Shown here piece by piece: positions 6,810 to 27,566 of a stretch of DNA of 64,000 nucleotides. The position numbers and the translations under genes are program-made. The DNA comes from Acidimicrobiia bacterium. GTDB taxonomy: Bacteria; Actinomycetota; Acidimicrobiia; IMCC26256; JAMXLJ01. Position 1 is the first letter of the stretch, and each line of letters begins with the position of its first letter. The DNA is taken from NCBI GenBank assembly GCA_035651955.1, contig DASRES010000031.1:12184-76183 (forward strand), given 5' to 3'. Below the pieces are notes generated by a model, which saw nothing but the letters and a program-made list of their open reading frames with translations, did not search any database and was not told the origin of the DNA.

Positions 6810-6825
6810 CTGACGGAATCGTCAG
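6810..6825. promoter_or_regulatory. Palindrome CTGAC-GGAATC-GTCAG (site 1 of a recurrent motif)
   Basis: Exact CTGAC-N6-GTCAG in the gap between the ACAD stop (6848) and the crotonase start (6785). Confidence 0.55.
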
Positions 6826-6847
6826 CAATGTACCGCCGACATGCGCG

Positions 6848-8020
6848 CTACCGCGGGAGGCCCAGCACGCGTTCGCCGATGACGTTGCGCTGGATCTCGT
6901 TCGTGCCCGCCCAGATCGACGACGCCTGGTAGTACAGCCACGAGCGTTGCCACGCGCCGCCACCCGGGTTGGCGTCCGCACCGCGCCACAACGGGGCCGA
7001 CGGGCCGAGCACGGTCATCACCGTGTCGTGGAGCCGCTTGCTCATCTCACTCCACCAGAGCTTGTTGAGGCTCCCCTGCGGGCCGGGATCCAGTCCCTTC
7101 GACAGGCGCGAGATCGACCGCCAGTTGTGCAGCTGGAACAGGCGCACCTCGACGAACGCCTGCGCGAGCCGCGGTGCGAGGCGCGGGTCGTCGAACGCGC
7201 CGGAGTCGTCCGCGAGCCGCAGCAGCTCGTCGAGCAGCTGGGCGTGGATGACGAGCTGGCGCGGGTTGCTGCCGCGCTCGTGCGACAGCGTCGAGTTCGC
7301 GACCCGCCACCCTTGGTGCTCGGGACCGACGAGACGCTCCCGGGGCACGAACACGTCGTCGAAGAACACCTCGTTGAACTCGGACTCGTCGGTGATCTGG
7401 CGGAGCGGCCGCACGTCGACGCCGGGGGAGCGCATGTCGACGACGAGGTACGAGATGCCCTGCTGCTTCGGCGCGTCCGGGTCGGTGCGAGCCAGGCAGA
7501 CGCCCCAGTCCGCGAACTGCGCGTAGCTCGTCCACACCTTCTGACCCGACAGCACCCAGCCGCCCTCCACGGGTGTCGCGCGTGTCCGCAACGACGCGAG
7601 GTCGCTGCCCGCACCGGGCTCGCTGAAGAGCTGACACCACAGCTCGTCGGCCGACAGGATCCTCGGCAGCCAGCGCGCCTTCTGCTCCGGCGTGCCGTGC
7701 GCGAGCAACGTCGGCCCGACGAGGTTGATGCCGATGCGACCGACGAGCTCCGGCGCGCGTGCGCGCGCGAGCTCCTCGGTCACGAGGTAGTGCTCGACGG
7801 GTCCGAGCCCGCGTCCGCCGAACTCCTCGGGCCACGCGACGCCGACCCACCGTCCGGACGCGAGCTTCGCCTGCCACTCGCGTCCGAACGCGACTTCTTC
7901 GCGCAGGTCGTCGAAGCGGGGCGGGAGCCCCTTGCCGTACTCCCACGGCAGGTTCTCGCGCAGCCACGCGCGCACCTCGTCGCGCAGCGCCGCCTCGCCG
8001 GCCGTCGGCGTGAGGTCCAC
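6848..8020 (-). CDS. Acyl-CoA dehydrogenase
   Basis: ACAD motifs WCQLFSEPGAGSDLASL and GTNEIQRNVIGERVLGLP. GTG start at 8020. Confidence 0.9.
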   Translation of the reverse strand: MDLTPTAGEAALRDEVRAWLRENLPWEYGKGLPPRFDDLREEVAFGREWQAKLASGRWVGVAWPEEFGGRGLGPVEHYLVTEELARARAPELVGRIGINLVGPTLLAHGTPEQKARWLPRILSADELWCQLFSEPGAGSDLASLRTRATPVEGGWVLSGQKVWTSYAQFADWGVCLARTDPDAPKQQGISYLVVDMRSPGVDVRPLRQITDESEFNEVFFDDVFVPRERLVGPEHQGWRVANSTLSHERGSNPRQLVIHAQLLDELLRLADDSGAFDDPRLAPRLAQAFVEVRLFQLHNWRSISRLSKGLDPGPQGSLNKLWWSEMSKRLHDTVMTVLGPSAPLWRGADANPGGGAWQRSWLYYQASSIWAGTNEIQRNVIGERVLGLPR

Positions 8021-8032
8021 CGGCGGCCGGGA

Positions 8033-9322
8033 TCAGCGCTCGTCGATCGGGACGTACTCCTGCTCGACCTCGCCCACGTAGATCTGGCGGGGCCGGCCGA
8101 TCTTCGTGCGCGGGTCCTCCATCATCTCCTTCCAGTGCGCGATCCAGCCGGGGAGCCGGCCGATCGCGAACAGGACCGGGAACATCTGTGTGGGGAAGCC
8201 CATCGCCCGGTAGATGAGGCCCGAGTAGAAGTCGACGTTCGGGTACAGCTTCCGCTCGACGAAGTACTCGTCGTTGAGCGCGACGTCCTCGAGCTGCAGG
8301 GCTAGGTCGAGCAGGTCGTCCATGCGGTTGAGCTCGGCGATGACGTCGTGCGCGACGTTCTTGATGATCCGCGCGCGCGGGTCGTAGTTCTTGTAGACGC
8401 GGTGACCGAACCCCGACAGCCGGAAGTGGTTGTCGGGGTCCTTCGCCATCTTCACGTACTTCTGGATGTCGCCGCCGTCGGCGCGGATCTTCTCCAGCAT
8501 CTCGACGACGGCCTGGTTCGCGCCGCCGTGCAGCGGACCCCACAGCGCGTTGATGCCTGCGGCGATCGACGCGTAGAGGTTCGCCTCGCTGGAGCCCGCC
8601 AGACGCACGGTCGAGGTCGAGCAGTTCTGCTCGTGGTCCGCGTGCAGGATGAGCAGCAGCTTCAGCGCGTGCACGACGTTCTGCGAGACCTCGTACGGCT
8701 CGGACGGCACCGCGAACATCATCGTGAGGAAGTTCTCGATGAGGTCGAGCTTGTTGTTCGGGTACAGGAACGGCTGTCCGATCGACTTCTTGTACGAGTA
8801 CGCCGCGATGGTCGGGAGCTTCGCCATCAGACGCGTGATCTGCAGCTGCACGCCCGCAGGGTCGTGAGGGTCCTCCGTGTCCTGGTAGAAGGTCGACAGC
8901 GCGCTGACGACGGACGACAGGATGCCCATCGGGTGCGCGTCCTTCGGGAAGCCGTCGAAGAACCGCTTGGCGTCCTCGTGCAGCAGCGTGTGCTTGCGGA
9001 TCCCGTACCGGAACGTGTCGAGCTCCTCGCGCGTCGGCAGCTTCCCGTAGATCAGGAGGTAGGACGTCTCGAGGAACGACCCGTGCTCGGCCATCTCCTC
9101 GATCGGGATGCCCCGGTAGCGGAGGATGCCGGCGTCGCCGTCGATGTAGGTGATGGCGGACTCGCACGACGCCGTGTTGACGAATCCGTAGTCGAGGGTG
9201 ACGAGACCGGTCTGCGCGCGCAGCTTGGAGATGTCGACACCGAGCTCGTCCTCGGTGCCCCGCACGACCGGGAGCTCGATCTCGTTGTCGCCGTGGCGGA
9301 GTACGGCGGGGGGTTCAGTCAT
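8033..9322 (-). CDS. gltA: Citrate synthase (type II)
   Basis: Full-length 429-aa match to the citrate synthase pattern, including GFGHRVYKNYDPRA. GAGGAG Shine-Dalgarno 7 nt upstream of the ATG. Confidence 0.95.
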   Translation of the reverse strand: MTEPPAVLRHGDNEIELPVVRGTEDELGVDISKLRAQTGLVTLDYGFVNTASCESAITYIDGDAGILRYRGIPIEEMAEHGSFLETSYLLIYGKLPTREELDTFRYGIRKHTLLHEDAKRFFDGFPKDAHPMGILSSVVSALSTFYQDTEDPHDPAGVQLQITRLMAKLPTIAAYSYKKSIGQPFLYPNNKLDLIENFLTMMFAVPSEPYEVSQNVVHALKLLLILHADHEQNCSTSTVRLAGSSEANLYASIAAGINALWGPLHGGANQAVVEMLEKIRADGGDIQKYVKMAKDPDNHFRLSGFGHRVYKNYDPRARIIKNVAHDVIAELNRMDDLLDLALQLEDVALNDEYFVERKLYPNVDFYSGLIYRAMGFPTQMFPVLFAIGRLPGWIAHWKEMMEDPRTKIGRPRQIYVGEVEQEYVPIDER

Positions 9323-26705: not shown

Positions 26706-26722
26706 GCGACCGAGCCCGTCGG

Positions 26723-27541
26723 TCAGGCGCCGCTTCCGCTCGCCTCGCGGCTCGCTCGCTCCATGGCGGCCATGCCCGCGAGGAAGCCGTCGGGGTCGTT
26801 CGTCTTGCCGATGACGATGTCGCGCTGCGCGAGGCCGCCGGGGAACTCGGGCGGGGCGAAGTACTCGAACCCGTCGTCCTCGATCGCGGCGACGATGCTC
26901 GCGGCGCACTCGTCGGCCGGGACGAACGGCCCGTCGTAGAGCGCGGGGTCGTTGCCGGGCTGGTCCCAGATCTCGGTGGCGATCGGCCCCGGGAGGACGA
27001 GCTTCACGTCGACGCCCGTGCCGTCGAGATCGATGCGCATCACCTCGCTCCAGCCGCACAACGCGAACTTCGACGCGCAGTACGCAGCCTCGTGCGCGAT
27101 GCCGATCCGGCCGCCCATGCTCGACACGTTGACGACGAGGCCGCGGCCGCGGTCGAGCATGCGGGGGAGCACCGCGAGCGTCATCGCGACGGGCGAGCGG
27201 AAGTTCACCTGCATCACCGTGTCGACCTGGTCGAGGTCGAGACGGGGGACCGGTGTGCGCTTCGGGATGGCGGCGTTGTTGACGAGGCAGTCGAGCCCGC
27301 CGAACGCGTCCCACGCCTCGAGGACGACCTGCTGCGCGCGCTCGACGTCGCCGAGATCCGCGGCCCAGGAGGTGGAACCGGGCGTGTGCGCGCGGCACTG
27401 CTCGACGACCTGCTCGAGCCGTTCGGCGCGGCGCGCGACGACGCCGACCGTCGCACCCTTGGCGGCCAGCTGCGGTGCGAGCGCGGCGCCGATGCCCGAC
27501 GACGCGCCCGTCACGAGGAACCTCGCCCCGTCGATCTGCAT
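26723..27541 (-). CDS. Short-chain dehydrogenase/reductase
   Basis: TGASSGIGAALA cofactor motif and catalytic YCASKFAL (YxxxK). Confidence 0.9.
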   Translation of the reverse strand: MQIDGARFLVTGASSGIGAALAPQLAAKGATVGVVARRAERLEQVVEQCRAHTPGSTSWAADLGDVERAQQVVLEAWDAFGGLDCLVNNAAIPKRTPVPRLDLDQVDTVMQVNFRSPVAMTLAVLPRMLDRGRGLVVNVSSMGGRIGIAHEAAYCASKFALCGWSEVMRIDLDGTGVDVKLVLPGPIATEIWDQPGNDPALYDGPFVPADECAASIVAAIEDDGFEYFAPPEFPGGLAQRDIVIGKTNDPDGFLAGMAAMERASREASGSGA

Positions 27542-27550
27542 GCCCGCATC

Positions 27551-27566
27551 ATGACACCGGCGTCAG
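27551..27566. promoter_or_regulatory. Variant palindrome ATGAC-ACCGGC-GTCAG (site 6, one mismatch)
   Basis: TGAC-N6-GTCA core kept. Lies 10-25 nt upstream of the SDR ATG in a divergent intergenic region. Confidence 0.4.

What the first reader, a model, noticed from the sequence alone, without database searches (positions are those of the whole stretch)
6810..27566. Recurrent 16-bp palindrome CTGAC-N6-GTCAG found only in promoter-proximal non-coding DNA next to lipid/oxidoreductase genes (candidate regulon operator)
Exact copies: 6810-6825 (GGAATC spacer, upstream of the crotonase/CoA-transferase/DUF35/thiolase string); 9390-9405 (GCCGGT, gltA/ACAD divergent region); 13442-13457 (GGCCCC, ACAD/aldehyde dehydrogenase divergent region); 16180-16195 (TACCGT, upstream of the P450); 20295-20310 (AGCGGC, alcohol dehydrogenase/ApbE-module divergent region). 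One variant ATGAC-ACCGGC-GTCAG lies at 27551-27566 (SDR/acyltransferase divergent region). Most are flanked by C/G, extending the symmetry to 18 bp. I went through all occurrences of CTGAC and GTCAG in the window by eye and found no exact copy inside any called CDS and none beyond 28 kb. My own estimate, assuming about 36% each G and C and 14% each A and T, is roughly 0.05 expected exact copies per 64 kb, against 5 observed. Sites sit about 10-85 nt upstream of the nearest start codon. Stems of 5-6 bp are too weak for terminators, so a dimeric transcription factor operator (TetR/GntR/MarR-like) is the most economical reading. I cannot assign it to a known regulator motif, and no obvious cognate regulator gene lies next to any site. 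An everted arrangement GTCAG-T-CTGAC lies at 61785-61795, just upstream of ppgK.
Basis: seen in the sequence. Interest (0 to 1): 0.7.

Follow-up and report, generated by a model that had tools for sequence, protein, structure and literature searches.

The report
Conserved repressor-binding box of lipid-oxidation genes
A 16-base palindrome (CTGAC-N6-GTCAG) sits on the promoters of six neighbouring fat-oxidation genes in an uncultured soil actinobacterium and is almost certainly the docking site of one dimeric repressor, probably a TetR-type protein encoded elsewhere in the genome; it is a real but ordinary kind of gene switch.

Summary
Five exact CTGAC-N6-GTCAG copies and one variant (ATGAC…) are at the stated coordinates, against 0.10 expected. 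A weight matrix separates these six (17–23 bits) from everything else in the window (≤10 bits). All are intergenic.

The window comes from an uncultured Acidimicrobiia lineage. In its 13 closest relatives, all 23 exact copies are intergenic and lie at the same orthologous promoters: P450, Zn-ADH, enoyl-CoA hydratase, acyl-CoA dehydrogenase, ALDH and SDR. Half-sites are 97% identical there, spacers 58% and flanks 35%. Only the N6 spacing is enriched. Most boxes overlap or abut the single TANNNT (-10-like) hexamer of the adjacent gene, which fits a repressor operator. They are not terminators, known RNAs or mobile repeats.

No regulator gene lies in the window. A metagenome scan for tandem boxes found an uncharacterised TetR subfamily, distantly FasR/FadR-like. 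Its own promoter carries two boxes over the -10 and the start codon in nine distinct contigs. This is the best candidate regulator type, but I could not show it in this lineage.

Verdict: a new member of a known kind, of moderate interest.

The parts
6810..6825 (.). Box 1, CTGACGGAATCGTCAG. It lies 24 nt upstream of the enoyl-CoA hydratase start (6785, minus strand), just downstream of a TACATT hexamer at 6827-6832 (minus strand).
   Evidence: orthologous box in L002 at 1671
9390..9405 (.). Box 2, CTGACGCCGGTGTCAG, in the divergent region between citrate synthase (start 9322, minus) and acyl-CoA dehydrogenase b (start 9517, plus). It lies 32 nt upstream of a TAGATT hexamer at 9352-9357 (minus strand).
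   Evidence: a one-mismatch counterpart in L013 at 3975
13442..13457 (.). Box 3, CTGACGGCCCCGTCAG, 32 nt upstream of acyl-CoA dehydrogenase c (start 13409, minus). It lies 18 nt upstream of a TACGCT hexamer at 13418-13423 (minus strand), so it covers the -35 position.
   Evidence: orthologous boxes in L004 at 1496, L001 at 5151, L013 at 9875 and L005-type loci
16180..16195 (.). Box 4, CTGACTACCGTGTCAG, 38 nt upstream of the P450 start (16234, plus). The spacer itself is the -10-like TACCGT (16185-16190).
   Evidence: the same position upstream of P450 in L001 at 6987, L004 at 3090 and L008 at 4932
20295..20310 (.). Box 5, CTGACAGCGGCGTCAG, 20 nt upstream of the Zn-alcohol dehydrogenase start (20274, minus). 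A TAGGCT hexamer (20309-20314, minus strand) overlaps the first two bases of the box.
   Evidence: orthologous box in L001 at 11431
27551..27566 (.). Box 6, the variant ATGACACCGGCGTCAG, 9 nt upstream of the short-chain dehydrogenase start (27541, minus) and divergent from an acyltransferase-3 gene.
   Evidence: 18.4 bits; the same A-for-C variant next to the SDR orthologue in L013 at 17940
3146..6785 (-). Predicted target operon behind box 1: enoyl-CoA hydratase, family-III CoA-transferase, ChsH2-type OB/zinc-ribbon (DUF35) protein and SCP-x-type thiolase.
   Evidence: Pfam
10675..13409 (-). Predicted target operon behind box 3: acyl-CoA dehydrogenase c and an acyl-CoA ligase (AMP-binding).
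   Evidence: Pfam; NCBIfam
16234..17424 (+). Predicted target behind box 4: cytochrome P450. Its nearest solved relatives include CYP107, CYP125 and CYP124 types.
19039..20274 (-). Predicted target behind box 5: Zn-dependent alcohol dehydrogenase. A metallo-beta-lactamase-fold gene and a DUF4097 gene follow on the same strand.
26723..27541 (-). Predicted target behind box 6: short-chain dehydrogenase/reductase.
6848..10608 (.). Genes flanking box 2: citrate synthase plus acyl-CoA dehydrogenase a (minus strand) and acyl-CoA dehydrogenase b (plus strand). Which side box 2 controls is not resolved.

Best explanation
The six boxes are operators for one homodimeric helix-turn-helix repressor. The two CTGAC half-sites are 11 bp apart centre to centre, so they lie on the same face of the helix.

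The repressor is most likely a TetR-family protein encoded outside the window. When bound, it sits on the -10 element (P450, Zn-ADH), the transcription start (enoyl-CoA hydratase) or the -35 region (acyl-CoA dehydrogenase c) and blocks RNA polymerase. A pathway metabolite, most plausibly an acyl-CoA or the hydrophobic substrate itself, releases it.

The regulon is a route for oxidising a hydrophobic or branched aliphatic compound: P450 hydroxylation, then alcohol and aldehyde dehydrogenases, then an acyl-CoA ligase, then acyl-CoA dehydrogenases, hydratase, CoA-transferase and thiolase, with citrate synthase taking up the acetyl-CoA.

Shown: the motif, its non-random occurrence, its strictly intergenic and promoter-proximal position, its spacing specificity, its conservation at orthologous promoters, and a TetR subfamily with tandem boxes over its own promoter.

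Inferred: repression, the identity of the regulator in this genome, the effector and the substrate.
For: - Five exact copies against 0.10 expected. Matrix scores are bimodal, six sites at 17-23 bits and the rest at 10 bits or less.
- In the window plus its 13 closest relatives, 23 of 23 exact copies are intergenic, in sequence that is 10.5% intergenic.
- TGAC-Nx-GTCA gives 29 intergenic and 3 coding hits at x=6, but only 0-2 intergenic hits at each other spacing from 2 to 10.
- Boxes recur at the same orthologous promoters in relatives whose ALDH protein is 72-90% identical.
- Across those promoter pairs the half-sites are 97% identical, spacers 58% and flanks 35%.
- Exactly one TANNNT hexamer lies within 60 nt of each exact box, always on the strand of the nearest gene. 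It is inside the spacer, overlapping the box, 1 nt upstream of it, or 18 or 32 nt downstream of it.
- In the L005-type relatives the acyl-CoA dehydrogenase ATG follows the box by 2 nt, a leaderless layout.
- In nine distinct metagenomic contigs a TetR_N protein (45-96% identical to one another) has a TTGAC -35. A first box holds the -10 in its spacer. A second box, 2-3 nt on, holds the protein's own ATG in its spacer.
- In other contigs tandem or single boxes lie upstream of P450-ferredoxin, acyl-CoA ligase/ALDH, an amidohydrolase, a MaoC-type dehydratase and paired acyl-CoA dehydrogenases. These are the same functional classes.
- The nearest solved relatives of that TetR include the acyl-CoA sensors FasR and Bacillus FadR, though distantly (PMC7382501).
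- The TetR protein RutR recognises TTGACCAnnTGGTCAA, which has the same TGAC-N6-GTCA core (PMC2475637).
Against: - No regulator gene is in the window, in 6.9 kb beyond its left end, or within 10 kb of the ALDH gene in relatives.
- The candidate TetR subfamily was found only in contigs from other organisms. Their best protein identity to window proteins is 33-58%. No other box lies within 10 kb of it there, so regulator and regulon are never seen on one contig.
- A second, unrelated TetR (L130) also sits behind tandem boxes, so the subfamily assignment is not unique.
- Box 2 lies about 45-60 nt upstream of the predicted citrate synthase start site, an unusual place for a simple repressor.
- The promoter elements are inferred from TANNNT matches only. 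The strict sigma-70 scan found nothing in this 72% G+C DNA.
Confidence: 0.72

Rival explanations
1. The boxes are bound by a dimeric regulator of another family (CRP/FNR-type, MarR, GntR or PadR). It might act as an activator at some promoters.
For: The 5-N6-5 layout is also that of CRP-type sites (TGTGA-N6-TCACA; from my own knowledge). Box 2 lies at about -45 to -60 relative to the citrate synthase -10-like hexamer, a position typical of activators. The cognate regulator was not found in this lineage.
Against: The half-site sequence differs from the CRP/FNR consensus. Five of six boxes overlap or abut core promoter positions. The only regulator genes found with boxes on their own promoters are TetR proteins.
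Confidence: 0.2
2. The palindrome acts in RNA, as a 5'-UTR stem-loop that affects stability, processing or attenuation, or as a terminator.
For: Each box can form a 5-7 bp hairpin of -9.7 to -12.9 kcal/mol. One of them has z = -4.1.
Against: Four of six hairpins are no better than shuffled sequence (z between +0.7 and -1.5), a fifth is only modestly better (z = -2.2), and the variant box folds poorly. None has a U tract and none was called terminator-like. There are no Rfam hits. At the P450 and L005-type promoters the -10 lies inside the spacer, so the first half-site would not be transcribed. Selection acts on the base identity of the half-sites (97%) with no compensatory changes.
Confidence: 0.04
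3. The pattern arises by chance, or is a dispersed repeat (REP/MITE) or a restriction-modification target with no regulatory role.
For: The bare pattern also occurs in unrelated DNA, for example a 26-bp satellite in L133 and CTGACC…GGTCAG repeats in many metagenomic contigs.
Against: Only 0.10 copies are expected in the window. Flanks are unrelated, at 35% identity. Copies are exclusively intergenic and conserved in position upstream of orthologous genes. The enrichment is spacing-specific.
Confidence: 0.02

Closest known systems
RutR box of Escherichia coli (TetR family), 5'-TTGACCAnnTGGTCAA-3' (PMC2475637)
   Same: A 16-bp palindrome with the identical TGAC-N6-GTCA core and spacing, bound by a TetR-family homodimer.
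   Different: Position 1 is C here, not T. The inner CA/TG pairs of RutR are not conserved; here there is only a purine after CTGAC and a pyrimidine before GTCAG. The organism is unrelated, and RutR controls pyrimidine catabolism, not lipid oxidation. RutR sites are mostly inside genes, whereas these are all intergenic.
KstR / KstR2 cholesterol-catabolism regulons of mycobacteria and Rhodococcus (TetR family; operator TnnAACnnGTTnnA, from my own knowledge)
   Same: One TetR repressor with a short palindromic box on many promoters of clustered P450, acyl-CoA dehydrogenase, hydratase, thiolase and acyl-CoA ligase genes. The inducer is a pathway metabolite or CoA thioester.
   Different: The half-site and spacing differ. 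A KstR-like GGAACATGTTTC palindrome does occur in relatives, next to a different TetR gene, so the two systems are distinct. No steroid ring-degradation genes are in the window.
Acyl-CoA-sensing TetR regulators FasR (M. tuberculosis, PDB 6O6N/6O6O/6O6P) and FadR (Bacillus, PDB 1VI0/3WHB)
   Same: Among the nearest solved relatives of the candidate TetR subfamily, matching over the full length. These proteins control fatty-acid metabolism and are released by long-chain acyl-CoA (PMC7382501).
   Different: The relationship is only distant (E 1e-16 to 1e-12). FasR is an activator, and the DNA it was crystallised with (TACCCGTACGTAGAACTCGCCAGTA) does not resemble the box.
McbR (TAGAC-N6-GTCTA) and AmtR (CTAT-N6-ATAG) boxes of Corynebacterium glutamicum (TetR family; recalled from memory, my search did not retrieve the source)
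   Same: Actinobacterial TetR regulons with a 4/5-N6-4/5 palindrome placed over promoters.
   Different: The half-sites and the regulon content (sulfur and nitrogen metabolism) differ.

Membership tests
TetR-family repressor operator / regulon | Short palindromic operator with half-sites about one helical turn apart | tested here: met
   A 16-18 bp palindrome with an 11-bp centre-to-centre distance; only the N6 spacing is enriched.
TetR-family repressor operator / regulon | Operator overlaps the core promoter or transcription start of the target genes | tested here: inconclusive
   The single TANNNT near each exact box is inside it, overlaps it, or lies 1 to 32 nt away on the strand of the nearest gene. 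No transcription start data exist, and the sigma-70 scan found no sites.
TetR-family repressor operator / regulon | A cognate TetR gene, usually autoregulated through the same box | tested here: inconclusive
   Met in nine metagenomic contigs, where tandem boxes cover the -10 and the ATG of a TetR_N gene. Not found in the window, its left extension or the relatives' loci.
TetR-family repressor operator / regulon | Protein binds the box and is released by a small-molecule ligand | not testable with these tools
   Needs EMSA or DAP-seq with and without acyl-CoA.
RutR box | Consensus TTGACCAnnTGGTCAA with conserved CA/TG inner pairs | tested here: not met
   Position 1 is C in 50 of 60 half-sites. 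The position after TGAC is A or G in 47 of 60, and the next one is not conserved. The consensus comes from PMC2475637.
KstR operator | TnnAACnnGTTnnA palindrome | tested here: not met
   None of the six boxes contains AAC-NN-GTT. A KstR-like palindrome occurs elsewhere in relatives.
Intrinsic terminator | G+C-rich stem followed by a U tract at a gene's 3' end | tested here: not met
   No box was called terminator-like, none has a T run, and most hairpin z-scores are unremarkable.
Known structured RNA (Rfam) | Match to a covariance model | tested here: not met
   No hits at E<=1 in 6000-28500.
REP / MITE-type dispersed repeat | Conserved sequence extending beyond the palindrome, with copies independent of gene context | tested here: not met
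   Flanks are 35% identical between orthologous copies and unrelated between paralogous copies; position relative to orthologous genes is conserved.
CRP/FNR-type site | TGTGA-N6-TCACA or TTGAT-N4-ATCAA half-sites and a CRP/FNR-family regulator | not tested
   The layout is similar but the half-sites differ by inspection. I did not search for a CRP-family gene outside the window.

The most novel reading that the evidence does not exclude
The box marks a previously undescribed, widely distributed actinobacterial regulon of the KstR or FadR type. Its master regulator would be a new TetR subfamily that is always co-transcribed with a ferritin-like diiron (AurF-like) protein and is nearly leaderless and doubly autorepressed. 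The diiron partner would make or destroy the effector that switches on P450/ADH/ALDH/beta-oxidation genes scattered around the genome.
Probability: 0.25. Interest if true: 0.55.

Novelty: new member of a known kind. Interest (0 to 1): 0.4.

Why it matters
Acidimicrobiia are abundant in soil and water but almost entirely uncultured, and essentially nothing is known about how they regulate genes.

A clean operator with a defined target set ties a P450, alcohol and aldehyde dehydrogenases, an acyl-CoA ligase and a beta-oxidation set into one predicted pathway. That makes the pathway's substrate and its regulator directly testable in a heterologous host.

The tandem-box TetR subfamily has more than 1,000 members and is annotated only as 'AcrR family'. 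This work gives it a predicted DNA target. The result does not change any general concept of bacterial regulation.

Tried and rejected
- **Regulator in the window.** Pfam on nearly all ORFs found only an AraC-type protein at 55468-56319 and an EAL/receiver protein. Unannotated ORFs are membrane or low-complexity proteins.
- **Regulator just outside the window.** A JGI contig extends 6.9 kb to the left and holds no regulator and no box.
- **Regulator next to boxes in relatives.**
  - The roughly 210-aa divergent gene in L070, L075 and L076 looks like a class II aldolase by sequence; I ran no family search on it.
  - The other small ORFs include no repressor-type regulator; one (L010 3034-3612) looks like an ECF sigma factor by sequence.
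  - A Fur-like ORF, a MarR-like ORF and an HTH/WYL-like ORF (assigned by eye) occur in single loci only.
- **The TetR gene in L005, L006, L007 and L072.** It has its own KstR-like GGAACATGTTTC palindrome and no CTGAC box, so I rejected it as the cognate regulator.
- **TetR genes divergent from ALDH in distant Acidimicrobiales** (L036, L059, L039, L024). They are unrelated paralogues with other palindromes.
- **Literature.** Searches for the motif string and for CTGAC/GTCAG with 'repressor' returned nothing relevant. One badly designed search was wasted, and a search for the McbR box returned nothing relevant.
- **Linking the tandem-box TetR subfamily to the window's lineage.** The contigs I looked up come from other organisms, and none carries further boxes within 10 kb.
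- **Other readings.** RNA, terminator and Rfam explanations were rejected.
- **The everted GTCAG-T-CTGAC at 61785.** I treated it as unrelated.

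
Full report
**Observation.** The pattern CTGACNNNNNNGTCAG occurs exactly five times in the 64-kb window, at 6810, 9390, 13442, 16180 and 20295. Dinucleotide-preserving shuffles give a mean of 0.10 and never more than 1. Allowing one mismatch adds only 27551, ATGACACCGGCGTCAG. A weight matrix built from 30 non-redundant sites in the window and its relatives scores the six sites at 17.3-23.2 bits. The next best position scores 10.3 bits and lies inside a gene. The best score in each of 20 shuffles ranged from 7.4 to 17.0 bits. 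So there are six sites and no tail of weak ones.

**Context.** The window is 72% G+C. I called genes with a codon log-likelihood model and checked them with Pfam and NCBIfam. All six boxes are intergenic. The nearest genes are:
- enoyl-CoA hydratase (start 6785, minus strand), which heads a string of family-III CoA-transferase, DUF35/ChsH2-type protein and SCP-x-type thiolase;
- citrate synthase (9322, minus) and, divergently, acyl-CoA dehydrogenase b (9517, plus);
- acyl-CoA dehydrogenase c (13409, minus), followed by an acyl-CoA ligase, and divergently an aldehyde dehydrogenase (13580, plus);
- a cytochrome P450 (16234, plus);
- a Zn-alcohol dehydrogenase (20274, minus);
- a short-chain dehydrogenase (27541, minus).

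The closest relatives of the aldehyde dehydrogenase are MAGs of Acidimicrobiia at up to 90% identity, so the window comes from an uncultured member of that class.

**More than chance, and more than composition.** I pooled the window with its 13 closest relatives' loci, 278 kb in all, of which 10.5% is intergenic. All 23 exact copies there are intergenic. One-mismatch copies split 4 intergenic to 6 coding, which is near background. As a control on spacing, TGAC-Nx-GTCA gives 29 intergenic and 3 coding hits at x=6, but 0-2 intergenic hits at every other spacing from 2 to 10. Across all 80 related loci (1.2 Mb) there are 26 exact copies, concentrated in the closest relatives.

**Phylogenetic footprint.** Boxes recur at the same promoters in relatives:

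| Promoter | Window | Relatives |
|---|---|---|
| P450 | 16180 | L001, L004, L008 |
| Zn-ADH | 20295 | L001 |
| Enoyl-CoA hydratase | 6810 | L002 |
| Acyl-CoA dehydrogenase c | 13442 | L004, L001, L013 and the L005 group |
| ALDH | none | L009, L010 |
| SDR (same A-for-C variant) | 27551 | L013 |

Over these orthologous pairs the ten half-site positions are 97% identical, the six spacer positions 58% and the 20-nt flanks 35%, which is about the random level for this composition. Selection therefore acts on the identity of the half-site bases. It does not act on the surrounding DNA or on base-pairing potential. The extended consensus is w-n-C-C-TGAC-R-N4-Y-GTCA-G-G-n-w.

**Position relative to promoters (inferred).** Within 60 nt of each exact box there is exactly one TANNNT hexamer, the actinobacterial -10 pattern, and it is always on the strand of the nearest gene.
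- For P450 it is inside the spacer (TACCGT).
- For Zn-ADH (TAGGCT) it overlaps the first two bases of the box.
- For the hydratase (TACATT) it lies 1 nt upstream of the box.
- For acyl-CoA dehydrogenase c (TACGCT) it lies 18 nt downstream, so the box covers the -35 region.
- For citrate synthase (TAGATT) it lies 32 nt downstream.

In the L005-type relatives the dehydrogenase ATG follows the box by 2 nt and the spacer holds TACCCT, a leaderless layout. Four of these five positions are classic for steric repression. The citrate synthase box sits further upstream, and it may instead serve the divergent dehydrogenase b. No transcription start data exist, and the strict sigma-70 scan finds nothing in this G+C-rich DNA.

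**Alternatives excluded.**
- The hairpins are short, -6 to -13 kcal/mol. Four of the six fold no better than shuffled sequence, one is only modestly better (z = -2.2), and only the hydratase box stands out (z = -4.1). None is followed by a U tract and none is called terminator-like.
- Rfam has no match in 6000-28500.
- Where the -10 lies inside the spacer, the first half-site cannot be in the transcript.
- Flanks are unrelated, so this is not a REP or MITE repeat.
- The everted GTCAG-T-CTGAC at 61785 is a different arrangement at the start of a ROK-family gene, and I do not count it.

**The regulator.** The window holds no TetR, GntR, MarR or similar gene. It has only an AraC-type protein at 55.5 kb and an EAL/receiver protein. 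A JGI contig that extends the window 6.9 kb to the left has no regulator and no box. In the relatives' loci the genes next to boxes are enzymes. One subclade does have a TetR gene, but it carries its own KstR-like GGAACATGTTTC palindrome and no CTGAC box.

I then scanned metagenomic contigs for two boxes 2-32 nt apart. Many hits are unrelated, such as a 26-bp satellite and CTGACC…GGTCAG repeats. One class recurs in high-G+C contigs: two boxes 2-3 nt apart directly at the start of a TetR_N gene, which is followed by a ferritin-like diiron (weakly AurF-like) gene.

In nine distinct contigs this promoter has the same anatomy. These are L085, L108, L123, L155, L164, L197, L205, L206 and L207. L208, L209 and L210 repeat three of them (L208 repeats L207, and L209/L210 repeat L164). 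In eight of the nine the TetR reading frame starts at the ATG inside the second box; in L123 that frame is closed and the gene is called from another start. The anatomy is a TTGAC -35, about 18 nt, then box O1 with TAACGT, TAGCGT or TAGTGT in its spacer, then 2-3 nt, then box O2 whose spacer begins with the ATG of the TetR protein itself.

The proteins are 45-96% identical to one another and have more than 1,000 homologues, named only 'AcrR family'. Their nearest solved relatives are distant but include the acyl-CoA sensors FasR and Bacillus FadR (PMC7382501). This is the signature of an autorepressed TetR that recognises the box.

Other tandem or single boxes in metagenomic contigs precede P450-ferredoxin, acyl-CoA ligase/ALDH, amidohydrolase, MaoC-type dehydratase and paired acyl-CoA dehydrogenase genes. 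These are the same functional classes as in the window.

**Limits of that link.** These contigs come from other organisms; their best protein identity to window proteins is 33-58%. None carries further boxes within 10 kb of the TetR gene. A second, unrelated TetR (L130) also lies behind tandem boxes. So the family (TetR) is the best-supported guess, the subfamily is a candidate, and its presence in this lineage is not shown.

**Comparison with known systems.**
- The closest described operator is the E. coli RutR box TTGACCAnnTGGTCAA. It shares the TGAC-N6-GTCA core and is bound by a TetR protein (PMC2475637). The present box differs at position 1 and lacks the conserved inner CA/TG, so it is not a RutR box.
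- In logic the system resembles the KstR/KstR2 and FadR regulons: one TetR repressor, many promoters of lipid-oxidation genes, and a CoA-thioester inducer. The operator, however, is different.
- FasR's DNA target is unrelated.
- Full-text searches for the motif found no description of it.

**Verdict.** It is a new operator motif and predicted regulon of a familiar kind, in a lineage where no regulation has been studied, with a plausible but unproven TetR regulator. It is useful for annotating and testing a P450-to-beta-oxidation pathway, but conceptually unsurprising.

Noticed in passing
window 15050-16150 (+): A glycoside hydrolase family 43 gene sits between the aldehyde dehydrogenase and the P450. 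In the relatives that retain the P450 (L001, L004, L005, L006, L008, L009, L010) the P450 follows the ALDH directly. The gene therefore looks like an insertion specific to this genome, and it places box 4 just after its stop codon.
   Followed up: partly
window 13538-13558; L001 5364, L002 9922, L007 9966: The ALDH promoter has TAGATT fused to a second palindrome. In three relatives this is TTGACCGGGCAGTCAA, with a TGAC-N6-GTCA core much like a RutR box. In the window it is degenerate (TTGACCGGACGGTCGAG). It may be a weaker or older site for the same regulator.
   Followed up: partly
L005 20290-20305, L007 and L072 equivalents: A KstR-like palindrome (GGAACATGTTTC) lies between a TetR gene and a divergent alkylsulfatase-like (MBL-fold) gene. 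This is a separate TetR system next to the CTGAC-box cluster in one subclade.
   Followed up: partly
window 61785-61795: An everted GTCAG-T-CTGAC lies at the 5' end of the ROK-family (ppgK-like) reading frame on the minus strand. The arrangement differs from the box, and I made no conservation check.
   Followed up: no
L107, L115, L132, L175, L120, L095 (metagenomic contigs): Two CTGACA…TGTCAG boxes about 11-24 nt apart lie upstream of MMPL-family transporter genes in three of these contigs (L095, L120, L175); in L107, L115 and L132 no MMPL gene was called within reach. This may be a related TetR-MmpL system in other actinobacteria.
   Followed up: no
L133 7-8355: A 26-bp satellite (TTTCTGACACTCCGGTCAGTATAACA) is present in about 322 copies in a 41% G+C contig. 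It matches the pattern by chance and is unrelated to the operator.
   Followed up: yes
window 9406-9516: The region upstream of acyl-CoA dehydrogenase b is a run of GAGCG/GCGGA-type purine-rich short repeats with no -10-like hexamer. I do not know its function.
   Followed up: no
window 34525-38067: My gene caller merged this stretch into one 1180-aa minus-strand ORF. An alkylsulfatase-like homologue (68% identical to L005 18978-20246) maps to 34876-35841 on the minus strand. Adenylate cyclase (36700-37818) and a thiolase-like gene (37831-39033) are on the plus strand. The relatives' lipoate-ligase-like gene, which carries a box, is absent from the window.
   Followed up: partly
L209, L210, L212, L213: The TetR-diiron protein pair is followed by a PETase/PAF-acetylhydrolase-like hydrolase. 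A homologous type of hydrolase is at window 39517-40530, but without the TetR pair.
   Followed up: no
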